Shown here piece after piece: positions 1,460 to 14,219 of a stretch of 17,593 nucleotides of DNA. Below the pieces are notes generated by a model. It was not told the origin of the DNA and did not search any database. It saw nothing but the letters and a program-made list of their open reading frames with translations. This DNA comes from a virus, in the UHGV virus genome UHGV-1834291, one strand, 5' to 3'. The translations under genes were made by a program, and so were the position numbers. Positions within the stretch are counted from its first letter, which is position 1, and the number at the start of each line of letters is the position of its first letter.

Positions 1460-1489
1460 ATTATGGCTAAATGGATAATTGCATGTCAA
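1460..1489 (-). promoter_or_regulatory. Candidate late promoter (pR'-like) overlapping the Q 3' end
   Basis: Minus strand TTGACA (plus 1484-1489), 18-bp spacer, CATAAT (plus 1460-1465). Would give a transcript of only ~45 nt before the terminator; qut site not identified. Confidence 0.3.
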
Positions 1490-1985
1490 GGCTTTTAACA
1501 GCAACATGCTTAACTTTCTCAACACGTTTACGCATTTTAAAAGCATTTTGCATTGGTTGGTACAAAACAAATAACGACGCTTTCAGGATGTCGTCAATTT
1601 CGTTTCTACAGGTTGCCAGTGAAGGTTTTCTCCATCCATCGCCACCACGTCCACACATCTTGCGTGGCTTTGCAGTCGCGTGATAGTAGGATGCAATTGC
1701 TCGCTTAGATGAACCATGAGCGTAGTAGCTGAGGAGGATGCCAAAGGCTTTCTTGTCAATGTACATGACGGAATCGACGACCTGAGAAATCAACATTCCA
1801 TCATCATCATTGCACATTGGCCTTGTCATAACTCTTCCCGGCTCTACGCTCTCCATGAACTTCGCTATTACGCTGCTCATGCGCTTTTCCAGACGACCTG
1901 AATAAACCCATGCGCCCCACAGTTCAAGCCAGCCATTCAGCCACTCGTGCTGCTCTTTGGTGAGGTTTAGTTCTCTTATGCCCAT
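1467..1985 (-). CDS. Q: Late-gene antiterminator, Q family (not lambda Q sequence type)
   Basis: 172-aa ORF between the nin region and the late terminator/lysis cassette; WGAW and [13 protein letters not shown] motifs resemble non-lambda Q-type antiterminators as I recall them; RBS GGGAGAA upstream. Confidence 0.7.
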
Positions 1986-2647
1986 GCGCCTTCTCCCTGT
2001 ACCTGAATCAATGTGAGGTTTCCGCAGAACACTGCGCCGGTATCGATATACATCTGGTTGGCAAACTTGAGTGGTTTCACTGCTGGCGTATGACCAAAGA
2101 TGAACGTGTCCGCTCCTTTGATTTCTTTCACGATCCCGTCTTGTGAGTTGCTGATTCGTTCGCGGTTCCAGATTACCTGCTGATGATCAACTGGCTTTCC
2201 AAACTCGTATTTATCACAAGGATAATCGGCGTGGCAGATGACATATTTTTTTTCTTTACTCACCAGTTCGATGATTAACGGAAGTTCATCTGCTTTATGG
2301 GCAAGAGCTTTAGCCAGAATTTCTTTGTCGTAATCGAGATTAAAGAACCAGCCACCGCCATTAAGCAGCCAGTGATTGACGTTTCCACGCTCTGATAAGC
2401 CATCAATCATCATTTGCTCATGGTTTCCACGTACAGCTCTGAACCAGGGGAATGTGATTAATTCCATACATTCGACGTTCTCTGTACCGCGATCAACCAA
2501 ATCGCCAACCGAGATAAGCAGGTCTTTTTTGGTGTCGAATCCTATCGTCTCCAGTTTTTTCATCAGGTTCGTGTAGCATCCGTGCAGATCGCCAACTACC
2601 CAAATATTTCGGTATTTGCTGCCATCAATTCTTTCGTAATAGCGCAT
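1976..2647 (-). CDS. ninI: Ser/Thr protein phosphatase (lambda PPase, NinI / orf221 type)
   Basis: Start trimmed from track ORF to internal ATG 2645-2647 ([25 protein letters not shown]...), matching the lambda PPase N-terminus; metallophosphatase motifs GDLHG, GDLVDRG, GNHE; RBS GGAG upstream. Confidence 0.9.
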
Positions 2648-2831
2648 CTCTTTCACTCCATCCGCGATGAACCATAAGAACGTCGTTGACGATGGCGTGC
2701 ATTTTCCCGTCTTTATCATCAACGTATTTTCTTACCGTGCCGCGACTACATTTCAGTCTGCGTGCCACTTCTGTCTGGTTTCCGTATGCTTCAACGAGCA
2801 TGTCTGGAATGGTTTTTACTGAGAACGTCAT
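2625..2831 (-). CDS. ninH: NinH
   Basis: 68-aa [40 protein letters not shown]... matches lambda NinH size and sequence from memory; ATGA overlap with ninG stop. Confidence 0.85.
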
Positions 2832-3439
2832 GCGGCCTCACTTCTGCTATTTCGCAGGTCTTTGAGTTTCTGTTGGTACTCTGCCTTGATCGCCTTGCAC
2901 TCTTCGACAGTCCAGCGATGGCGGTTATGGTTTGATTCGATTTCGTCTACTGCTTCCTGCCCGATTCGGTTAATCAGTTCGACGCGATACGGAACGAGAT
3001 TTCCGCTTTTATGCTGGTTGCACACCACGCATTGCTTGTGAATATTGCGTTCATCAAATCGGAGTTGAGGTGCCGCAGCAGTTGTCCTGTAATGTCCAGC
3101 ATCCCACTGAGCAGACGTGAGCGTTCCGCACGAGATACATGGTAAGTCGCGGTCTCTTTCTCTGATGAAGGCGTTTACGGCTTGAGCCAAGTGTTTAATC
3201 CAGTAACTGCGGGGCTTTAAGGCGAGTTTTCGAATCTTAAGTTTATCTTTCTGTTTCTGCTCCTCTCGTCGTCGTTTCTTCTCTGCTGCTTTTTCCGCTT
3301 TTTCGCGTTCTTTACTTCGTCGTTCGAGTGCTATCTTGGCTCCACACTCTGGAGAGCACCACCACTGATTAGCGAATGTAGGGTGAAACCATTCCCGACA
3401 TTCTTCGTTTTTACATCGTCTTCGCGCTGGTTTAGCCAT
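2828..3439 (-). CDS. ninG: NinG / Rap recombination-associated endonuclease
   Basis: 203-aa ORF with Cys-rich N- and C-terminal clusters and K/E/R-rich linker, lambda NinG-like; start overlaps ninF stop. Confidence 0.9.
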
Positions 3440-3608
3440 CGTCTTCTTCCTCGTACATTGAGCTATTCGGATCGCTCATCAGTTCTGCGCAGCAATCGGA
3501 GCACACATGAACTTCCAGCACATGCAGCTTCTGACCGCAGTTAGCGCACGTTAAAGCTCGCTCGACGCTTTCTTTCTGGTATTGAAGGGATTGGGATGGG
3601 CTAAGCAT
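3432..3608 (-). CDS. ninF: NinF
   Basis: Not in ORF track (58 aa). Minus-strand translation from ATG 3606-3608: [58 protein letters not shown], matches lambda NinF as recalled; stop 3432-3434. Confidence 0.8.
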
Positions 3609-3988
3609 TATTGGATTCTCTGCATCATGAGAAAGACAATCATGGCTGCGCGGAGAGGGTTGTCATCAAGAGTAATATGCTCACCAAAGCTATCAGCCTC
3701 CCACCATGACACTGCTTTCATGCCAGGGTTTGCTCGCTTGTATGCACATACGCTGATCATGTTTTCCATGATAATCGGCCATGCGTCTGCTGGGTTTGCG
3801 CATGGGTTAAAGGAACCGCGCTCAACTTCTACTTCAACTGCGTCTCCGTTTACAATGTCTCCCTCAAATGAGACAAACACCATATCGCCATTCTCACCTT
3901 CTTTGTAATCCGGTGATCCGTTATGAATGGCTTCGAATACCGCCACGTTAATTTCAAAATCACTTAACTGTGAATAATCCATTGTCAT
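3608..3988 (-). CDS. Hypothetical nin-region protein, 126 aa (occupies the P22 NinX position between ninE and ninF)
   Basis: Track ORF trimmed to ATG 3986-3988, which overlaps the ninE stop (ATGA); protein [24 protein letters not shown]...; no recognised motif; identity as NinX is positional only. Confidence 0.6.
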
Positions 3989-4161
3989 TTCCTCGCACGA
4001 TATCTTAGCCACCGGATATCCCACAGGTGAGCTGTGTAATTGAAGGTTTTTACGTCAGATTCTTTTGGGATTGGCTTGCGTTTATTTCTGGAGCGTTTCG
4101 TTGGAAGGTATTTGCAGTTTTCGCAGATGATGTCGGTGAAACTTCGTCGCTGTCGCCTCAT
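3985..4161 (-). CDS. ninE: NinE
   Basis: Trimmed to internal ATG 4159-4161: [58 protein letters not shown] (58 aa), matches lambda NinE from memory. Confidence 0.85.
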
Positions 4162-4685
4162 GCCGCCCTCCTGACGCCCTGCCCGATCGCCATCAATGCC
4201 GCTTTGGATACGGTAGTAAACATCCGTCGAGGACTGATGAACGGTCGCCAAATCAGCAGCATGGAGCCTTTGCTGTTTCCCTTCTTCTCCAACCCTGTCG
4301 ATGGTTCGATAAAATTAATCCGTCCATCAGTGATAATGCGAACTTCGTCGACACTCTCCAGAGCCTTGCTGAACCATCCGACTGACATATCCTCTGGCAC
4401 AAGCATAACTACCGTCTGTCGCTGTTGTATGCACTGCTCAGCGGCTTTTTCCACCCACGGCCTGATATTGCTGTACGGTGGGTTATTCCAGATTGCACCG
4501 TGGCTTATCCACTCAGAATTGAGTGCGTCGTCGGCCTCAGTTAGCCAGTGAGCGCACAGAGCATTTTTGTCGCTCGCTGCCGAATCCAGCCAGAATCCAA
4601 ACTCAATATCCAGTGCATCAAAAAGCCAAAGCGGCGTTTGCCAGCAGTCCTTGTCGTGTGCTGGCGTATTTGATTTGATAGTCAT
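4158..4685 (-). CDS. Orphan DNA N6-adenine methyltransferase (phage Dam-like, NPPY motif)
   Basis: Trimmed to ATG 4683-4685 ([25 protein letters not shown]...); 175 aa; catalytic motif IV NPPY present (IWNNPPYS); ATGA overlaps at both ends; no adjacent restriction endonuclease candidate. Confidence 0.75.
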
Positions 4686-5122
4686 GCAGCCCGATCTCCC
4701 CATCGCGCTTTCCATTCGAGAGCTAGTCGCGCTTCGTCTGACCACTTAACGCCACACTCTGTACCGAATGCCTGTATAAGCTCTAATAGCTCCGCAAATT
4801 CGCTTACACGCATCCTGCTGGTTGACTGGCCTATTACCACAAAGCCATTCCCGGCAAGGTTAGGAACAACATCCTGCTGCTTTAATGCTGCGGTAAACAC
4901 ACACTTCCAGCTTTCTGCATCCATCCAGCGACCATGCCATTCAACCTGACGAGAGACGTCACCAAGGCAAGCCCAAAGCTTTCGATTCTGGTCTAAGCTG
5001 CGGTTGCGTTCCTGAATGGTTACTACGATTGGTTTGGTTGGGTCTGGAAGAATTTGCTGTACCGCGTGAATAGCGTTTTGCTGATGTGCTGGAGATCGAA
5101 TTTCAAAGGTTAGTTTTTTCAT
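4682..5122 (-). CDS. ninB: NinB recombination protein
   Basis: Trimmed to ATG 5120-5122: MKKLTFEIRSPAHQQNAIHAVQQILPDPTKPIVVTIQERNRSLDQNRKLWACLGDV..., 146 aa, near-identical to lambda NinB from memory; RBS GGGGAGAGGGAAG. Confidence 0.9.
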   Translation of the reverse strand: MKKLTFEIRSPAHQQNAIHAVQQILPDPTKPIVVTIQERNRSLDQNRKLWACLGDVSRQVEWHGRWMDAESWKCVFTAALKQQDVVPNLAGNGFVVIGQSTSRMRVSEFAELLELIQAFGTECGVKWSDEARLALEWKARWGDRAA

Positions 5123-5140
5123 GACTTCCCTCTCCCCCAA

Positions 5141-5170
5141 ATAAAAAGGCCTGCGATTACCAGCAGGCCT
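5141..5170 (-). terminator. Intrinsic terminator between replication genes and nin region (tR2-equivalent position)
   Basis: Perfect 7-8 bp inverted repeat ggcctgc/gcaggcc (5148-5154 / 5163-5169) with 8-nt loop, followed on the minus strand by UUUUUAU (plus A-run 5143-5147). Confidence 0.65.
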
Positions 5171-5195
5171 GTTACAAGCTCAGTGATGTAGATGG

Positions 5196-6572
5196 TCATA
5201 CGTCAGCCCCTTGTGCATATCGTCTGCCACGTGCAGCAGGTGCATTTGATGTTGTGCAAATCTGTCTGGCTTCATCCTGGTCACATGCAACAAAGTGTCC
5301 GTTGCAGAACCGCTGGTAAACCGTACCAAGCGAGCCAAAACGGTTTTTCGTTACGATGATTTCAGCAAATGGCGCGGCGCTACTGTTCTCGTCATATACC
5401 GCTTCCCGATAGAGCATGATGATTGAGTCTGCGTCCTGTTCAATGCTTCCTGAATCACGCAAATCTGCGTTTGTCGGGCGTTTGTTTGGTCGCTTCTCAA
5501 CATCGCGCGAAAGCTGACTCAGGGAGATAACGGGCGTTTTCAGGTCTTTCGCCATCGCCTTCAGGCTTCCGGAGATGTGAGCAATTGCGAGGTCGTTGCG
5601 GTCTGCTTTCGGCTTCTCAATCAGGCCAAGATAATCCACCATGATGAGTGAGAGGTTTGGATTTTCCTGTTTGTGCCGTTCTGCGATTGAGCGTATTTCT
5701 TCGACCGATAACCGCGAGGCATCGACTACCCATACATCCAAATCTGCAAGCTGACTCATGCCGTTAGCAACGCGCGCCCAGCCTTCGTCATCCATCGCTG
5801 CAGGATTTCGCAGCACACTAACCGACATCCTCCCGGCGTTGGCAATGCTTCGCTCTGCAATCTGCAATGCGCTCATTTCCATTGAGAAAATCAATACCCC
5901 GCGCCGGACGTCAGAACCAGGAATAACGCGGCTTGCAACGCCTTCGGCAATCTTCAGCGCCAGTTCGGTTTTCCCCATACCAGGACGAGCAGCGATTATC
6001 ACCAGGTCTTCCGCGTTCATCCCTCCGGTGATGGCATCAAGTTCTTCGATTCCGGTCTTCAGGGTATCGGACTCTTCTCCGTTCCTCAGACGCCTGTCAA
6101 GCGTGTCAGTGTAGTCAGTAATGATTTCCCCTAACCGTACAGGTTTAACCTCGTCACGGGGCTTTCTGATGGCTGAAAGACGCTTTACAAGCTCATCCAT
6201 CGCCTGACTCGATGCGTCGATGGTTCCGCTCTGAATTGGTTCACGCATTTCATCCATGATTTCCAGCACCAGACGGCGGTGATAGTTATCCGCGACCATT
6301 CCGGCATATCCCTTCAGGTTTGCGGCACTAGGGCAGTTTTTGCTGGTCATCAGGATTGACGTGAAATGCTCCTCTCCGCACGCCTCGGCAACCATCAGCG
6401 CGTCGATTAGGTTTCTGTTTCGCGCCTGCTTGCGGATAACCTCGAAGGCTTTCCGGTAGAGCGGAATTGAAAACGCTTCCGGCTCAAGCGTTGCCAGAAC
6501 GTCACTGGCAGTTGGTGTTAATCCACCAATCAGCAGGCCACCGATAACGCTCGCTTCGATATCCTGTCTCAT
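5196..6572 (-). CDS. Replicative DNA helicase, DnaB family (P22 gene 12-like)
   Basis: 458 aa; Walker [13 protein letters not shown]; DnaB-like N-terminal domain; start ATG overlaps O-like stop (ATGA). Confidence 0.9.
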
Positions 6573-7390
6573 GCAATCCCCCTGTCTGCAAACTTCCCTT
6601 CCCGTACTCCCGTTAACGAATCTTCCCTCAACAGGTAATCAAAATCAGCTGTCCAGCCCGTGTCGTTGTCTCCGAAGTAAAACGGCTTGGCCTGATGCAC
6701 AAACGCCCTGACATACGCTCTGAAACCGTCCACGTTTGGCGTTTTCAGTTGCGGGATGATTTTCTTCAGGCGGCGTTTGCGTTTCTCGTTGACCGCAACA
6801 GCGTGTGGCAGTCTGTCACCTACTTCGGTGTTGTAGGCGTTCAGGAAGGATTCGTAGTCGATTCGTTCTGCCTTGCGACGTTCAGGTTTAACCTGCCCAT
6901 CGCCGCCCCCGTTAGGGGGTAAGGGGGTATTTGTATTTATTGTCTTTTGTATATTGTCTTTTGTGTTTAGCTGACTTGGCTTATACCCATTAGCCGACTT
7001 GGCTAATGTTTTATTAGCTGTTTTAGCTAATGTTAAGCTGTCCTGGCTAATCCACTGAGAAACCACCTTGTTCACTCCGATTTTCACGCCATCAGCAATG
7101 AGGAATTTACGCTCAATAAGCTGGCGCTTGGCAGCGCAAACATGAGTGTGATGAATACCTGTCATGGCTGCTATCTGCGTGTTTGTGAGTCGATCCATCG
7201 GCTTATTGAATCCGTATGTCTTGCGCATGATAGCGAGCATCACCTTCAACTGCCGGACGGTTAAATCAGCCATCAGCAGACTGTCGGTAATCTCGTTAGC
7301 AACGCGCATGAAACCATCTTCGGTATCTGCCACGCGATGCTCCACGACCTCCAGTTGAGGCCTGTAATCAGCTAACTTAACGACGCCCAT
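6569..7390 (-). CDS. Replication initiation protein, lambda O-like N-terminal domain
   Basis: 273 aa; N-terminal segment [25 protein letters not shown] resembles the lambda O DNA-binding domain; iterons lie inside the gene as in lambda; RBS AGGAG upstream. Confidence 0.85.
6911..7051. repeat. Candidate replication origin: four ~18-bp iterons plus adjacent AT-rich tract inside the O-like gene
   Basis: Direct repeats tagctgacttggcttata (6968-6985), tagccgacttggctaatg (6991-7008), tagctgttttagctaatg (7015-7032), taagctgtcctggctaat (7034-7051); AT-rich tract 6927-6967; G-rich gggggtaagggggta at 6914-6929. Confidence 0.7.
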
Positions 7391-8260: not shown

Positions 8261-8977
8261 ATGGAAAATAAAAAATCACTGACGACAGAACAGCTCGAAG
8301 ACGCTAAGCGGCTTAAGGCTTTGTATGAGTCAAAAAAGAAAGAATTGGGAATAACCCAATACTCAATCGCTGATGAACTGGGTATCACCCAAGGAGCGGT
8401 AGGGCATTATCTTAATGGCAGAAACGCGCTAAACGTTGAGGTCGCATCTGGTTTTGCACGTTTGTTGCAAGTCTCAATTGCTGATTTTAGCCAGTCAATT
8501 GCTGCCAAGGTTGCAGAACAGGCAGAAAGCCTTAAGAGCGATGCCAACGTAAGGTATGCAGGGGAATACAGAGCAGGAAAGAGGTATCCGGTGTTAAGCA
8601 GTATCCAGGCTGGCTCGTGGTGTGAAGCATGCGAACCATACACCATTAAAGACATAGATGTTTGGCTTGAGTCTGACGCGCATATTCAAGGTAATGCGTT
8701 CTGGCTTAAAGTGGAAGGTGATTCAATGACGGCACCGGTTGGGTTAAGCATTCCAGAGGGAACATTCGTTCTTTTCGATACCGGAAGGGAGGCGATCAAC
8801 GGCAGCTTGGTCATAGCAAAACTTTCTGACTCTAACGAAGCAACATTCAAGAAGCTGATAATCGACGGCGGAAATAAATACCTCAAGGGACTTAATCCTG
8901 CATGGCCTCTCGTGCCAATCAATGGAAACTGCAAGATTATAGGCGTTGCAATTGAGACAAAACTAAGGCTGGTTTGA
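8261..8977 (+). CDS. cI: CI-type prophage repressor (HTH_XRE N-domain, S24 LexA-like autopeptidase C-domain)
   Basis: 238 aa; HTH ITQYSIADELGITQGAVGHYLNG; C-domain with catalytic Ser (GDSM) and Lys (FKKL) and an Ala-Gly candidate cleavage site; divergent from cro across the operator region. Confidence 0.9.
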   Translation: MENKKSLTTEQLEDAKRLKALYESKKKELGITQYSIADELGITQGAVGHYLNGRNALNVEVASGFARLLQVSIADFSQSIAAKVAEQAESLKSDANVRYAGEYRAGKRYPVLSSIQAGSWCEACEPYTIKDIDVWLESDAHIQGNAFWLKVEGDSMTAPVGLSIPEGTFVLFDTGREAINGSLVIAKLSDSNEATFKKLIIDGGNKYLKGLNPAWPLVPINGNCKIIGVAIETKLRLV

Positions 8978-8994
8978 TCACGCAAGGGGCGATT

Positions 8995-9363
8995 ATGGTT
9001 GGAACCGCTATAGCAAGCTTTTTTGGGATGTTGGCAATCTCGACAATTTACGGCTTAGCGCATGCTTTTATTGCGAAATCTCTATCAGAAAAAATAAGCC
9101 AGGCTTGGGCGCATAGATCAGCTCGTTTCATGATTCTGGTGATCATAGCAATACAAGGGATATCTGCATTTATCCTCTATGGATCAAGCTTATACCTATT
9201 GTATCAAGGCGCGACATTTACGCCTTACACCAGTGATTACGGAACTCTATACGATGGTAGTGAAGACATCACTGTGGCTTGGATCGTCTTTGGTTTATCT
9301 ATGGCCGTGTCTGTTGTAGCAGACATCATTAAGGTAATTCTCGTCTTAACCTTCGCTGACTAA
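8995..9363 (+). CDS. Small membrane protein (122 aa, three predicted TM helices) directly downstream of cI; function unknown
   Basis: ATG 8995 with RBS AAGGGG 6 nt upstream, 18 nt after cI stop; MVGTAIASFFGMLAISTIYGLAHAFIAK...; three long hydrophobic stretches; occupies the rexAB-equivalent slot between cI and OL. Confidence 0.6.
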   Translation: MVGTAIASFFGMLAISTIYGLAHAFIAKSLSEKISQAWAHRSARFMILVIIAIQGISAFILYGSSLYLLYQGATFTPYTSDYGTLYDGSEDITVAWIVFGLSMAVSVVADIIKVILVLTFAD

Positions 9364-10006: not shown

Positions 10007-10231
10007 ATGAATCAGACATACATTCCATCATGCTTGAGAAATCTGCCAAAGCAGAAAGCAAAGCCCCGCAAGCAAGCCATAAAGGACGCTAAGGCAGATG
10101 TTATTGATCAAGCAATACAATTGCTCAGGGAGGAGTTAAGAAGTGGCAAGCTCGAAGGAATGATGATGTCCTATCAGCGCGGATATCTATCGGCGATTAG
10201 TAAGTTGGAAGTATTGAAGAGTGAATTATGA
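10007..10231 (+). CDS. Hypothetical protein, 74 aa, basic N-terminus
   Basis: ATG 10007 (GTG 10004 possible) 3 nt after N stop, RBS GAGG; MNQTYIPSCLRNLPKQKAKPRKQAIKDAKADVIDQAIQLLREELRSGK...; no recognised motif. Confidence 0.45.
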   Translation: MNQTYIPSCLRNLPKQKAKPRKQAIKDAKADVIDQAIQLLREELRSGKLEGMMMSYQRGYLSAISKLEVLKSEL

Positions 10232-10288
10232 ACTATCTGGAATTTCCGGATGGTTCATTGTTTTGGCAGCAAGCCACAGAGGTGATAT

Positions 10289-10375
10289 ATGGAAGAAGAA
10301 TTTGAAGAGTTCGAAGAGCATCCGCAGGATGAGATGGAACAATACCAGGACTATCCGTATGACTACGACTATTGA
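10289..10375 (+). CDS. Candidate 28-aa highly acidic/aromatic peptide overlapping the ral start
   Basis: ATG 10289, MEEEFEEFEEHPQDEMEQYQDYPYDYDY, stop 10373-10375; 17-nt overlap with ral in another frame; could be non-coding. Confidence 0.3.
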   Translation: MEEEFEEFEEHPQDEMEQYQDYPYDYDY

Positions 10376-10559
10376 TAAGAATCAATGGTGTGGACAATTC
10401 AAGCGATGCAATGGATGCAAGCTGCAATCGGAATGCATGGTTAAGCCTGAAGAAATGTTTCCTGTAATGGAAGATGGGAAATATGTCGATAAATGGGCAA
10501 TACGAACGACGGCAATGATTGCCAGAGAACTTGGTAAACTGAACAACAAGGCTGCCTGA
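10359..10559 (+). CDS. ral: Ral restriction-alleviation protein
   Basis: Trimmed to ATG 10359: MTTTIDKNQWCGQFKRCNGCKLQSECMVKPEEMFPVMEDGKYVDKWAIRTTAMIARELGKLNNKAA (66 aa), near-identical to lambda Ral from memory. Confidence 0.9.
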   Translation: MTTTIDKNQWCGQFKRCNGCKLQSECMVKPEEMFPVMEDGKYVDKWAIRTTAMIARELGKLNNKAA

Positions 10560-10582
10560 TGGTGGCCTTTATTTTCTTATTT
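10548..10582 (+). terminator. Candidate intrinsic terminator immediately after ral
   Basis: aaggctgcc / ggtggcctt 9-bp stem (two G-U) with tgat loop containing the ral stop codon, followed by tattttcttattt. Confidence 0.5.
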
Positions 10583-10595
10583 GAGAGGAATTAAT

Positions 10596-11219
10596 ATGTC
10601 ATCAATCCGCTTAACTACGAGAATGAAAGAGGAAATCGCTCGTAACGCTTTAATTAAGTCTGGGGTTTTCACTGAGCTTGAAGAAGTAACAAAGTTAAAG
10701 AACCAGCTTGCACTTGACGCCAGAGTTATTGCGTTTGGCGGTAAAAAGAAAACTGAGGAAGTGGATCAGTTATCATCCAAGTTGGTAGCTATAAGTGAAG
10801 AACTTGGAAAGATGGGATGTTCATTTTACTCATACGATTTTCGTTCTACTTCAATTTATCTGACTGTATCTGGCAGAAGGGTTGGATGGCATTCATATGG
10901 AAAAGACGGCAACGGCGAAGATATATTGCTCCCTACTCCGACCAGAGATAAATGCATGTTTGACGCAGAACACGAAATAACAAAAAGGTTTGATGAAATC
11001 TGCGCATTGCAACAAAAACTTGAAGTCAAGAAAAAGGATATCGAATCAAATGTATGGGCTGCTTTGAACTCAGTCACAACAGTTAAGCGACTCATTGAAG
11101 TTTGGCCTGAAAGCAAAGAATTGCTACCAAAAGAAGCAGATAAAGCAAGTACAGCACTTCCTGCTTTACGGGTAGAGGATTTGAATAAGATGATTGGACT
11201 TCCTTCCGAGGCCGCATAG
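10596..11219 (+). CDS. Hypothetical soluble protein, 207 aa; unknown function
   Basis: ATG 10596 with RBS GAGAGGA; MSSIRLTTRMKEEIARNALIKSGVFTELEEVTKLKNQLALD...; no TM segments or recognised catalytic motif; bracketed by terminators; occupies the slot where lambda/P22 carry sieB. Confidence 0.6.
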   Translation: MSSIRLTTRMKEEIARNALIKSGVFTELEEVTKLKNQLALDARVIAFGGKKKTEEVDQLSSKLVAISEELGKMGCSFYSYDFRSTSIYLTVSGRRVGWHSYGKDGNGEDILLPTPTRDKCMFDAEHEITKRFDEICALQQKLEVKKKDIESNVWAALNSVTTVKRLIEVWPESKELLPKEADKASTALPALRVEDLNKMIGLPSEAA

Positions 11220-12729: not shown

Positions 12730-12900
12730 ATGTCACTTGCAACCACAGTGAAGGAGAGCAAGTTACAGAGACGCATGTACACGCAGAAAGCTCTCTGGTA
12801 TCGCCATAATGGTGACCGCGAAGGAATGCGGGTATGCCTTAATTTGTCCCGAGTTGAAGTATTAAATCAGCGTTATTTCCTTGGGCCGTGTCCATTCTGA
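12730..12900 (+). CDS. Small ORF (56 aa) immediately upstream of erf (P22 arf position)
   Basis: ATG 12730 with strong RBS AAGGAGA 5 nt upstream; MSLATTVKESKLQRRMYTQKALWYRHNGDREGMRVCLNLSRVEVLNQRYFLGPCPF; ends 10 nt before erf ATG. Confidence 0.35.
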   Translation: MSLATTVKESKLQRRMYTQKALWYRHNGDREGMRVCLNLSRVEVLNQRYFLGPCPF

Positions 12901-12910
12901 GAACAATCAT

Positions 12911-13516
12911 ATGAGCAAAGAATTTTACGCAAGACTGGCAGCTATTCAGGAGAATCTGAACGCGCCAAAGAATCAGTACAACTCATTCGGCAAATATAAA
13001 TACAGAAGCTGCGAAGACATTCTTGAAGGCGTTAAGCCGTTACTGAATGGCCTGTTTTTATCAATCAGCGATGAAGTTGTGTTGATTGGTGATCGGTATT
13101 ACGTGAAAGCCACAGCAACTATTACCGATGGCGAAAACAGTCATACAGCAATCGCTCTTGCACGAGAGGAAGAAAGCAAGAAAGGAATGGATTCTGCACA
13201 AGTTACGGGAGCTACAAGCTCTTATGCACGCAAGTATTGCCTCAATGGTTTGTTCGGCATTGATGATGCGAAAGATGCAGATACAGACGAGCATAAACAT
13301 CAGCAGAACGCAGCAGCAAAGCAATCAAAACCATCACCTACACCTGAACAGGTTCTAAAAGCATTCACTGACGCAGCAATGCAGAAAAACACCGTAGAAG
13401 AGCTTAAACAGGCGTTCGCCAAAGCGTGGAAGATGCTCGAAGGCACACCGGAGCAGCACAAAGCGCAGGACGTTTACAACATCAGACGAGATGAATTAGA
13501 AGGAGCGGCTGCTTAA
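12911..13516 (+). CDS. erf: Erf single-strand annealing recombinase (P22 Erf-like)
   Basis: Trimmed to ATG 12911: MSKEFYARLAAIQENLNAPKNQYNSFGKYKYRSCEDILEGVKPLLNGLFLSISDEVVLIGDRYYVKATATITDGENSH..., matching the P22 Erf N-terminal domain from memory; C-terminal domain divergent. Confidence 0.9.
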   Translation: MSKEFYARLAAIQENLNAPKNQYNSFGKYKYRSCEDILEGVKPLLNGLFLSISDEVVLIGDRYYVKATATITDGENSHTAIALAREEESKKGMDSAQVTGATSSYARKYCLNGLFGIDDAKDADTDEHKHQQNAAAKQSKPSPTPEQVLKAFTDAAMQKNTVEELKQAFAKAWKMLEGTPEQHKAQDVYNIRRDELEGAAA

Positions 13517-13899
13517 TGGCACATTCGATTACTGTAAGACTAAACAAGCCCGTAAGAGAGTTTCAGGCCGGGGAAAATATCGGATTCAACATCCGTGCTG
13601 GCGTTCAGTATTACGATCGCCAGACAAAAAAGAAAGAATGGACAAACTACAGCGCCGTTGTATTTGCCAAGCCGGGAGCGCAAGCGGATTACTACCGTAG
13701 TGTTCTTGTTGAAGGTGGCATTGTGGAAATTACCGGAGAAAACATCAGGGTTGATGTTTATCAGGGGCAAAATGGTCAATCAATCACTCTTGAATTACTG
13801 AATGCAAAGATTGGATTTGCAGCTTCAGGAAATGGCCCGCAGCAGCAAAGTAGTAACCAGCAGAACACTCCTGTATACGACGATTCCATCCCATTCTGA
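13516..13899 (+). CDS. SSB-like single-stranded DNA-binding protein (short form with acidic C-terminal tip)
   Basis: 127 aa; OB-fold-like core, Gln/Ser-rich linker, C-terminal DDSIPF resembling the SSB tail DDDIPF; ATG overlaps erf stop (TAATG). Confidence 0.7.
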   Translation: MAHSITVRLNKPVREFQAGENIGFNIRAGVQYYDRQTKKKEWTNYSAVVFAKPGAQADYYRSVLVEGGIVEITGENIRVDVYQGQNGQSITLELLNAKIGFAASGNGPQQQSSNQQNTPVYDDSIPF

Positions 13900-13922
13900 T
13901 TTAGAAAAATAAGGGTTCCATT

Positions 13923-14219
13923 ATGCCAGCGCCTCTGTATGGTGCGGATGACCCGCGCCGCTGTTCCGGCAATTCCGTATCGGAGGTGCTGGAAAGTATC
14001 AAGAATAATCTCGGCGCGTTTCTTGCTCTGCCACCAGAAACAAAAGCAGAACGGAAGTACCGACGCGATATACAACTCGCAGAAAAACAGGAAAAAGACC
14101 GAATAAACGAAACATCAATCCGACCATTCCGCAAAGCCACATATACCCACTTCCCTGAATATATCGACCCGCGCCTGCGTAATTACCGCTCACGCTATGG
14201 CGCTATCAGTAATGACTGA
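13923..14219 (+). CDS. Hypothetical protein, 98 aa
   Basis: ATG 13923, RBS AAGGG; [52 protein letters not shown]...; no recognised motif. Confidence 0.45.

What the first reader, a model, noticed from the sequence alone, without database searches (positions are those of the whole stretch)
3608..4685. Remodelled nin region: orphan Dam-like methyltransferase and an unknown 126-aa ORF inserted among lambda-type nin genes
ninB, ninE, ninF, ninG, ninH and the PPase are lambda-like, but the ninC/ninD interval is replaced by a 175-aa NPPY-motif N6-adenine methyltransferase with no partner endonuclease, and a 126-aa unknown ORF sits between ninE and ninF (the P22 ninX position). Every junction from ninB to ninF uses ATGA or TAATG overlaps, indicating tight translational coupling. 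An orphan methyltransferase here is a likely anti-restriction function; its target site is unknown.
Basis: partly seen in the sequence, partly recalled or inferred. Interest (0 to 1): 0.45.

Follow-up and report, generated by a model that had tools for sequence, protein, structure and literature searches.

The report
Ordinary lambdoid nin region: Dam plus NinX
This is a standard, already catalogued version of the small-gene "nin" block of lambda-like prophages. It carries the well-known phage GATC adenine methylase and a NinX-family gene, so it is ordinary rather than new.

Summary
The sequence features are real. On the minus strand the order is ninA-ninB-dam-ninE-ninX-ninF-ninG-ninH-ninI-Q, with ATGA or TAATG overlaps at the junctions.

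The interpretation overstates novelty.
- The 175-aa methyltransferase belongs to the phage Dam family (PF05869; TIGR01712 equivalog). It is 174/175 identical to the only methyltransferase of phage VT2-Sakai, M.EcoVT2Dam, which the literature reports as GATC-specific. It is 100% identical to the phage Nil2 protein. Its target is therefore not unknown.
- The "unknown 126-aa ORF" is a NinX/DUF2591 family member (PF10765). It is more likely 124 aa, starting at the ATG at 3982. The identical protein is on record in at least 135 blocks of the public assembly collection, and in every context read it lies between ninE and ninF.
- The same gene order occurs in phages HK544 and Sf101, in phages HF4s, N7 and IME10 by DNA match over at least 96% of the 1.8-kb query, and in 153 complete E. 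coli genomes.
- The ninB|ninE slot is a known cassette site. In different prophages it holds nothing, a lambda NinC-type PAPS reductase, or Dam.
- ATGA overlaps are a documented general property of nin regions.

An anti-restriction role for Dam is plausible but unproven. NinX function remains unknown: its predicted fold matches only uncharacterised structural-genomics proteins.

Verdict: already known, low interest.

The parts
5119..5199 (-). ninA-like 26-aa ORF ([26 protein letters not shown]). Its ATG overlaps the helicase stop codon (ATGA) and its stop overlaps the ninB ATG (ATGA).
   Evidence: 25/26 residues identical to P22 ninA.
5147..5170 (-). tR2-like intrinsic terminator hairpin, followed by a T-run, embedded in ninA.
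   Evidence: Terminator scan: 8-bp stem with 6 G-C pairs, then TTTTATTT. P22 annotates tR2 inside ninA at the same place. This is a consensus match only.
4682..5122 (-). ninB (Orf-family recombination mediator), 146 aa.
   Evidence: PF05772, 180 bits. 98% identical to lambda NinB.
4158..4685 (-). dam: orphan phage Dam-family N6-adenine DNA methyltransferase, 175 aa. GATC specificity is inferred from near-identity to M.EcoVT2Dam.
   Evidence: PF05869, 218 bits. TIGR01712 equivalog, 264 bits against a cut-off of 97. 174/175 identical to VT2-Sakai NP_050531. 100% identical to the phage Nil2 protein. PADLOC best match is an orphan methyltransferase model.
4473..4484 (-). Catalytic motif IV, NPPY (residues 68-71 of Dam).
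   Evidence: Read from the sequence and the translation.
3985..4161 (-). ninE, 58 aa.
   Evidence: PF05322, 143 bits. 95% identical to P22 and HK544 NinE, 87% to lambda NinE.
3608..3982 (-). ninX (DUF2591 family), 124 aa from the ATG at 3982. Function unknown.
   Evidence: PF10765, 56 bits against a cut-off of 22.6. PHROG 444, E 8e-42, category 'unknown function'. The identical 124-aa protein is listed in 135 blocks of the collection, and in every context read it lies between NinE and NinF. 41% identical to P22 NinX.
3432..3608 (-). ninF, 58 aa. Its ATG overlaps the ninX stop codon (TAATG).
   Evidence: PF05810. Junction sequence.
2828..3439 (-). ninG (Rap-type junction endonuclease), 203 aa.
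   Evidence: PF05766, 299 bits. 95% identical to lambda NinG.
2625..2831 (-). ninH, 68 aa.
   Evidence: PF06322. 100% identical to lambda NinH.
1976..2647 (-). ninI Ser/Thr protein phosphatase, 223 aa.
   Evidence: PF00149. 95% identical to lambda NinI.
1467..1985 (-). Q-type late antiterminator that closes the operon. It is not the lambda Q type.
   Evidence: PF06530. No meaningful identity to lambda Q.

Best explanation
The interval is the central part of a conventional mosaic nin region, the delayed-early block between the replication genes and Q, of a lambdoid prophage of the E. coli/Salmonella gene pool.

Expression (inferred). The genes are probably transcribed from pR once N-mediated antitermination reads through the tR2-like terminator embedded in ninA. 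This follows from the lambda/P22 paradigm. They are probably translated as a coupled string through ATGA and TAATG stop-start overlaps.

The ninB|ninE slot (shown). This is a cassette site that holds nothing, a NinC-type PAPS reductase, or Dam in different prophages. Here it holds the widespread phage Dam-family orphan methyltransferase.

Dam activity (inferred). From 174/175 identity to M.EcoVT2Dam, the enzyme should transfer a methyl group from S-adenosylmethionine to N6 of the adenine in GATC, using its NPPY motif.

Dam role (inferred). The most likely role is to keep rapidly replicating phage DNA fully GATC-methylated when host Dam is limiting or absent. That would protect progeny DNA from methylation-sensitive GATC-cutting restriction enzymes and from MutH nicking of hemimethylated DNA.

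NinX (shown that it is a family member; function unknown). The ORF between ninE and ninF is one allele of NinX/DUF2591, a small accessory protein. Its predicted conserved helical core carries the near-invariant motifs PCxNPxDAWPII and NPLRAAM, and its middle part (predicted beta-hairpin plus loops) is hypervariable.
For: Family assignments are above the curated cut-offs for every gene.

The same gene order is annotated in phage HK544 and in an E. coli RefSeq genome; HF4s shows the same order, but its record annotates no ninE or ninF. Nine phage records and 153 complete E. coli genomes cover at least 80% of the 1.8-kb query in one place.

Dam:
- 174/175 identical to VT2-Sakai orf32, the only methyltransferase annotated in that phage.
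- M.EcoVT2Dam is 'known to target 5'-GATC-3'' (PMC6602927).
- The phage Phi24B dam product is 100% identical to the VT2-Sakai protein. It was detected as expressed in lysogen cultures, and its expression changed significantly on induction (PMC3342100).
- Virion DNA of lambda and P22 is under-methylated by host Dam, possibly because replication outruns modification (PMC8022706).

Cassette nature:
- Contigs carrying the identical NinX have NinB-NinE, NinB-PAPS_reduct-NinE or NinB-Dam-NinE.
- Locus L012 matches window 3437-4169 and 4682-5200 at 98% and lacks exactly the dam gene.

NinX:
- 537 phage records and 1545 protein clusters match.
- The conserved and variable parts are mapped.
- The AlphaFold2 model has mean pLDDT 82.

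ATGA overlaps are general in nin regions (PMC8022706).
Against: - No experiment was done on this sequence. GATC specificity rests on one substitution-level identity to an enzyme characterised in a 2001 paper that I could cite only second-hand.
- The biological role of phage Dam is stated in the literature to be 'still not well understood' (PMC7556043).
- GATC is itself depleted in this window (41 observed, 91 expected). That fits avoidance of Dam sites at least as well as reliance on them.
- NinX has no functional evidence of any kind. The fold search returned only uncharacterised proteins.
Confidence: 0.9

Rival explanations
1. This is a newly remodelled nin region in which a methyltransferase of unknown specificity has been inserted as an anti-restriction device that creates a new methylation motif in the lysogen or the phage.
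For: The methyltransferase is orphan. The prophage also carries another anti-restriction gene, ral, at 10221-10559, so counter-restriction is part of its repertoire.
Against: The protein is 174/175 identical to the GATC-specific M.EcoVT2Dam. GATC is already methylated by host Dam, so no new motif is expected. The arrangement is common and annotated in isolated phages and in 153 complete E. coli genomes.
Confidence: 0.05
2. The phage Dam acts mainly as an epigenetic or regulatory factor. By supplementing host Dam, it helps to stabilise lysogeny or to time the lytic programme, rather than protecting DNA from nucleases.
For: Host Dam is reported to be essential for stable lysogeny of Stx phage 933W. 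The identical Phi24B Dam was detected in lysogen cultures, and the authors suggest it supplements host Dam (PMC3342100).
Against: The gene lies in the delayed-early lytic operon downstream of tR2, and no promoter-like site stands out in front of it (2 sites found against 3.1 expected). Detection in lysogen cultures may come from spontaneously induced cells. There is no direct test.
Confidence: 0.25
3. NinX is a host-interaction or counter-defence protein. Its hypervariable middle part, the predicted beta-hairpin and loops, is the recognition surface and diversifies in an arms race. That would explain why it is the one divergent gene within otherwise about 95-100% identical nin regions.
For: - NinX is 41-42% identical to the HK544 and P22 alleles, while the flanking nin proteins are 95-100% identical to their HK544 counterparts.
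- DNA homology to HK544 is lost in the middle of ninX, except for one 45-nt stretch at 87% identity.
- The Sf101 and HK544 nin regions are identical except for ninX, at 43% (PMC4159516).
- The conserved core and variable part are mapped.
Against: There is no homology to any known anti-defence or defence family. The structural neighbours are uncharacterised. Allelic replacement by recombination among old lineages explains the pattern without positive selection.
Confidence: 0.15

Closest known systems
nin regions of phages HK544 and Sf101 (also HF4s, N7, IME10) and many E. coli prophages
   Same: The gene order is identical: ninB-dam-ninE-ninX-ninF-ninG-ninH-ninI. The Dam, NinB, NinE, NinF, NinG, NinH and NinI proteins are 95-100% identical to those of HK544.
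   Different: - The ninX allele is only 42% identical to that of HK544.
- The Q antiterminator is of a different type.
- HK544 has two small ORFs between the helicase and ninB, where this window has the P22-type 26-aa ninA.
M.EcoVT2Dam (VT2-Sakai orf32, NP_050531); phage Dam family PF05869/TIGR01712
   Same: 174/175 residues are identical, with the same length, the same NPPY motif and the same position between ninB and ninE.
   Different: There is one conservative substitution, I60V. Activity was not tested for this copy.
Bacteriophage lambda nin region (ninB-ninC-ninD-ninE-ninF-ninG-ninH-ninI)
   Same: NinB, NinE, NinF, NinG, NinH and NinI are homologous at 78-100% identity. The genes are tightly overlapped, and the block lies between the replication genes and Q.
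   Different: Lambda has ninC (a PAPS reductase-like gene) plus ninD where this window has dam. Lambda has no ninX. Lambda uses the P protein rather than a DnaB-type helicase.
Bacteriophage P22 nin region (ninA-ninB-ninD-ninE-ninX-ninF-ninG-ninY-ninH-ninZ)
   Same: The ninE-ninX-ninF order is the same. The ninE/ninX junction sequence (GAGGAAATGACAATGGATTATTCACAG) is the same. The ninA peptide is 25/26 identical and contains tR2.
   Different: NinX is only 41% identical. P22 has ninD, not dam, after ninB. P22 has ninY and ninZ and lacks ninI.
Host Dam (E. coli alpha-class GATC methyltransferase)
   Same: The inferred target (GATC) and the chemistry (N6-adenine methylation) are the same.
   Different: It is an unrelated sequence family and a much larger protein. 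The phage enzyme matches PF05869, not the host Dam family. This is functional mimicry, not membership.

Membership tests
Phage Dam family (Pfam PF05869; NCBIfam TIGR01712 'phage N-6-adenine-methyltransferase', equivalog) | Full-length match to the family profile above the curated cut-off. | tested here: met
   PF05869: 218 bits against a cut-off of 28.1, covering profile positions 1-167 of 169. TIGR01712: 264.2 bits against a cut-off of 97.05, covering 1-165 of 165.
Phage Dam family (Pfam PF05869; NCBIfam TIGR01712 'phage N-6-adenine-methyltransferase', equivalog) | Intact catalytic motif IV, (D/N)PP(Y/F). | tested here: met
   N68-P69-P70-Y71, encoded at window 4473-4484 on the minus strand.
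Phage Dam family (Pfam PF05869; NCBIfam TIGR01712 'phage N-6-adenine-methyltransferase', equivalog) | N6-adenine methylation of GATC. | not testable with these tools
   Inferred from 174/175 identity to VT2-Sakai orf32 and the statement that M.EcoVT2Dam targets GATC (PMC6602927, citing PMID 11720311).
Phage Dam family (Pfam PF05869; NCBIfam TIGR01712 'phage N-6-adenine-methyltransferase', equivalog) | Orphan status: no cognate restriction endonuclease gene nearby. | tested here: met
   None of the larger ORFs screened across the 17.6-kb window matches a restriction endonuclease family. The best PADLOC matches are 'oMTase' orphan methyltransferase models.
NinX / DUF2591 (Pfam PF10765) | Full-length match to the family profile above the gathering score. 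| tested here: met
   56 bits against a cut-off of 22.6, covering profile positions 1-114 of 114. PHROG 444, E 7.9e-42.
NinX / DUF2591 (Pfam PF10765) | Position between ninE and ninF, as in P22. | tested here: met
   Window order. P22 annotation. The same order is seen in all nine contexts read for the identical or 98%-identical protein.
NinX / DUF2591 (Pfam PF10765) | Family-conserved residues: N-terminal helix, C61/N63/P64/D66-I71, L110-I115. | tested here: met
   The window protein carries every invariant and near-invariant residue of a 128-sequence alignment.
NinX / DUF2591 (Pfam PF10765) | A defined biochemical function. | not testable with these tools
Lambdoid nin region | A block of small, overlapping delayed-early genes between the replication genes and Q, preceded by tR2. 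| tested here: met
   The order is O-like and DnaB-like replication genes, then ninA with a terminator-like hairpin, the nin genes, then Q. Overlaps are listed. The general property is documented in PMC8022706. Terminator function was not tested.
Type II restriction-modification system | A methyltransferase paired with an adjacent cognate endonuclease. | tested here: not met
   The flanking genes are ninB and ninE. No endonuclease family match was found among the ORFs screened in the window.

The most novel reading that the evidence does not exclude
NinX may be a counter-defence or host-targeting protein. Its hypervariable middle part, the predicted beta-hairpin and loops, would be the specificity determinant, and its conserved helical core the scaffold. 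That would explain why ninX is the one strongly divergent gene (about 41-43% identity) inside nin regions whose other proteins are 95-100% identical. This window would be one allele in that series, not a discovery in itself.
Probability: 0.12. Interest if true: 0.45.

Novelty: already known. Interest (0 to 1): 0.06.

Why it matters
It matters little. The finding re-describes a catalogued arrangement of lambdoid prophages. Two residual points have some value.

1. The biological role of the very common phage-encoded GATC methylase is still not settled in the literature.
2. NinX is a widespread accessory family: 537 phage records, 1545 protein clusters, and a reach as far as Vibrio phages. It has no known function and shows a conspicuous pattern of a conserved core with a variable insert.

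Neither question is made more tractable by this particular window.

Tried and rejected
- Sequence searches of the methyltransferase, of NinX and of a 128-sequence NinX profile against PDB chains found nothing significant.
- Literature searches for NinX and DUF2591 returned only genome-annotation mentions and no functional study. A search for the PDB codes 1R7L and 4PUP returned nothing relevant.
- A search for work on phage-encoded Dam in Stx phages added nothing beyond PMC3342100.
- A restriction partner for the methyltransferase was considered and rejected. No ORF screened in the window matches an endonuclease family.
- A dead enzyme was considered and rejected. The NPPY motif is intact, and the protein differs by one conservative residue from a characterised active enzyme.
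- I did not model the methyltransferase structure or spend the last large homology search on it, because the verdict does not depend on either.

Full report
**What is there**

All the genes concerned lie on the minus strand. Read in the direction of transcription, the order is as follows:
- an O-type replication gene (6569-7390);
- a DnaB-type helicase (5196-6572);
- a 26-aa ninA-like ORF (5119-5199);
- ninB (4682-5122);
- a 175-aa methyltransferase (4158-4685);
- ninE (3985-4161);
- the "126-aa ORF" (3608-3988, or 3608-3982);
- ninF (3432-3608), ninG (2828-3439), ninH (2625-2831) and the Ser/Thr phosphatase ninI (1976-2647);
- a Q-family antiterminator (1467-1985).

Each named gene matches its Pfam family well above the gathering score. 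The finding's interval, 3608-4685, therefore covers exactly three genes: dam, ninE and ninX.

The NPPY motif is real. It is residues 68-71, encoded at window 4473-4484.

The overlaps are also real. ATGA occurs at ninB/dam, at dam/ninE and at ninE/first ATG of the ORF. TAATG occurs at ninX/ninF.

Identity to the lambda proteins is 78-100% for NinB, NinE, NinF, NinG, NinH and NinI.

**Two small corrections to the observation**

1. The start of the ORF. The Shine-Dalgarno sequence GAGG lies only 2 nt before the ATG at 3988 but 8 nt before the ATG at 3982.
   - Public gene calls of the identical protein use the 124-aa form.
   - HK544 and an E. coli RefSeq genome also leave a 2-nt gap between ninE and ninX.
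   - The ninE/ninX ATGA overlap is therefore probably not the start that is used.
2. The extent of the compact packing.
   - Helicase/ninA, ninA/ninB and ninG/ninH also use ATGA.
   - ninF/ninG overlap by 8 nt and ninH/ninI by 23 nt.
   - The literature describes this as a property of the nin regions of all lambdoid phages (PMC8022706, citing Kroger & Hobom 1982 and Cheng et al. 1995).

**The methyltransferase**

- Family: it is a full-length member of the phage Dam family. PF05869 scores 218 bits. The NCBIfam equivalog TIGR01712, "phage N-6-adenine-methyltransferase", scores 264 bits against a cut-off of 97.
- Distribution: tblastn finds it in 1901 phage records. Of these, 140 are at least 99% identical, and the phage Nil2 copy is 100% identical.
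- Nearest characterised enzyme: it is 174/175 identical (I60V) to orf32 of phage VT2-Sakai, which also sits between ninB and ninE. That is the only methyltransferase annotated in VT2-Sakai. It is therefore the enzyme named M.EcoVT2Dam.
- Specificity: PMC6602927 states that M.EcoVT2Dam is known to target 5'-GATC-3', citing Radlinska & Bujnicki 2001. "Target site unknown" is not correct.
- Expression: the dam product of Stx phage Phi24B is 100% identical to the VT2-Sakai protein. It was detected as expressed in lysogen cultures, and its expression changed on induction (PMC3342100).
- Orphan status: this holds. The neighbours are ninB and ninE. No ORF screened in the window matches a restriction endonuclease family. 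The best PADLOC matches are orphan-methyltransferase models.

**The "unknown" ORF**

- Family: it is a NinX/DUF2591 family member. PF10765 scores 56 bits against a cut-off of 22.6 over the full profile. PHROG 444 matches at E 8e-42.
- Public record: proteins 98-99% identical are annotated as "phage protein NinX family protein" in E. coli and Salmonella. The identical 124-aa protein is listed in 135 blocks of the public assembly collection.
- Context: in all nine contexts read, it lies between NinE and NinF. This is the P22 order.
- Divergence: the allele is 41% identical to P22 NinX, 42% to HK544 NinX, and at most 77% to any isolated-phage record.
  - The divergence is concentrated in the middle of the gene.
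  - DNA homology to HK544 holds at 95.5% up to window 3666 and resumes at 98% from 3947. In between there is only a 45-nt stretch at 87% identity, which overlaps the conserved PCxNPxDAWPII motif.
  - The same pattern is published: the Sf101 and HK544 nin regions are identical except for ninX, at 43% (PMC4159516).

**NinX structure and function**

- A 128-sequence alignment reaching Vibrio phage homologues shows a conserved N-terminal helix. It also shows near-invariant C61, N63, P64 and D66-I71, and a conserved C-terminal NPLRAAM helix.
- The AlphaFold2 model (pLDDT 82, pTM 0.74) places these conserved segments in three helices around a long, variable beta-hairpin.
- BFVD gave nothing useful. 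PDB sequence and profile searches gave nothing. The literature holds no functional study.
- NinX function therefore stays unknown. My only inference is that it is a dispensable accessory protein whose variable surface may bind a variable partner.

**How common the arrangement is**

- The 1.8-kb stretch from ninF to ninB matches 431 phage records. Nine of them cover at least 80% of it in one place: N7, HF4s, IME10, Sf101 and HK544, some present in more than one record.
- It matches 2209 of 5426 complete E. coli genomes, 153 of them over at least 80%.
- The annotated order ninB-dam-ninE-ninX-ninF-ninG is seen in HK544 and in an E. coli RefSeq genome. HF4s shows the same order, though its record annotates no ninE or ninF.
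- The whole 17.6-kb window is a typical mosaic. The best single E. coli genome covers 86% of it at 97.5% identity.

**Cassette structure**

- Contigs carrying the identical or near-identical NinX have, between ninB and ninE, either nothing, a PAPS-reductase gene of the lambda ninC type, or dam.
- Locus L012 matches window 3437-4169 and 4682-5200 at 98% and lacks exactly the dam gene.
- The junctions on both sides of the cassette share the sequence GGGC(T/G)GCATGA, which encodes Ala-Ala-stop overlapping the next ATG.
- The same GCNGCATGA junction occurs at lambda ninB/ninC and ninC/ninD, at P22 ninB/ninD, and at ninG/ninH in this window.
- Three matches in the window is not statistically remarkable (22 of 200 shuffles reach it). 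All three, however, lie exactly at gene junctions.
- This fits the long-standing picture of module exchange at gene boundaries in lambdoid phages. I do not claim it as new.

**Mechanism, with the status of each step**

- Shown: gene identities, gene order, the overlaps, the intact catalytic motif, orphan status, near-identity to M.EcoVT2Dam, and the cassette boundaries.
- Inferred from the lambda/P22 paradigm:
  - transcription from pR through the tR2-like hairpin (5147-5170) after N antitermination;
  - translational coupling through the overlaps.
- Inferred from identity: SAM-dependent N6 methylation of the adenine in GATC.
- Inferred, with moderate confidence only: the biological role. The idea is that the enzyme tops up GATC methylation on fast-replicating phage DNA and so protects it from methylation-sensitive GATC-cutting nucleases and from MutH.
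  - For: lambda and P22 virion DNA is under-methylated by host Dam (PMC8022706).
  - Against: the literature says the role of phage Dam is not well understood (PMC7556043).
  - Against: GATC is depleted in this window, 41 observed against 91 expected.
- A regulatory role in lysogeny is a live rival (PMC3342100).

Comparing the methylome of a lysogen with that of a cured strain would show no new motif in a dam+ host, because GATC is already methylated. This would be so even if the enzyme is fully active. The decisive assay is expression in a dam- background followed by DpnI/MboI digestion or by methylome sequencing. PMC7556043 describes that design for another phage GATC methylase.

**Verdict**

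The feature is an already known, annotated and common configuration of the lambdoid nin region. Interest is low. The only open thread is the unknown function of the NinX family and its hypervariable middle segment, and this window adds nothing specific to that question.

Noticed in passing
window 5119-5199 (-), hairpin at 5147-5170: A 26-aa hydrophobic ORF that is 25/26 identical to P22 ninA. It has a strong terminator-like hairpin and T-run (tR2-like) embedded in it. ATGA overlaps link it to the helicase stop codon and to the ninB start codon.
   Followed up: yes
window 4682-4690, 4158-4166, 2828-2836 (-); also L016 (lambda), L005 (P22), L012, L013: The junction sequence GCNGCATGA (Ala-Ala-stop overlapping the next ATG) recurs at the boundaries of alternative cassettes: ninB/dam, dam/ninE, ninG/ninH, lambda ninB/ninC and ninC/ninD, and P22 ninB/ninD. 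Prophages that lack dam join ninB to ninE exactly at this sequence. It may serve as a short recombination linker. The count in the window is not itself significant.
   Followed up: partly
window 3667-3946 (-), middle of ninX: DNA homology to HK544 is lost only in the middle of ninX, which encodes the predicted beta-hairpin and loops. The 5' and 3' ends of the gene and all flanking genes stay at 95-98%. ninX is thus the hypervariable gene of the region.
   Followed up: partly
window 10221-10559 (+) and 10581-11219 (+): The pL operon carries ral (PF11058, anti-restriction against Type I systems). Immediately downstream is a solitary Nmad5 protein (PF18757, 'nucleotide modification associated domain 5', 239 bits). 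Its function is unknown (PHROG 1965, category 'unknown function').
   Followed up: no
window 8974-9363 (+): A 129-aa ORF lies directly downstream of the cI-type repressor (8261-8977), at the position where lambda has rexAB. It matches only PHROG 6534 (unknown function) and no PADLOC model. It is a candidate lysogen-expressed exclusion gene.
   Followed up: no
whole window: GATC is strongly under-represented: 41 observed against 91 expected from a maximal-order Markov model, a ratio of 0.45. Among palindromic tetramers only CTAG is lower, at 0.33. No GATC occurs between 5094 and 7192, the helicase and O genes. This holds even though the prophage encodes its own GATC methylase.
   Followed up: no
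window 12881-14219 (+): The recombination module is P22-like, not lambda-like. It has Erf (PF04404), an SSB-like protein (PHROG 44) and the anti-RecBCD protein Abc2 (PF11043). This underlines the lambda/P22 mosaic nature of the prophage.
   Followed up: no
L012 1-2311; L009 3523-4029; L015 3544-4110: Related prophages that carry the identical or 98%-identical NinX show other insertions in the same operon. One is a 797-aa DnaB helicase with a faint LAGLIDADG hit, which suggests an intein. Another is an HNH_3 endonuclease gene inserted after ninF: between ninF and ninG in L015, and before an antirepressor gene in L009.
   Followed up: no
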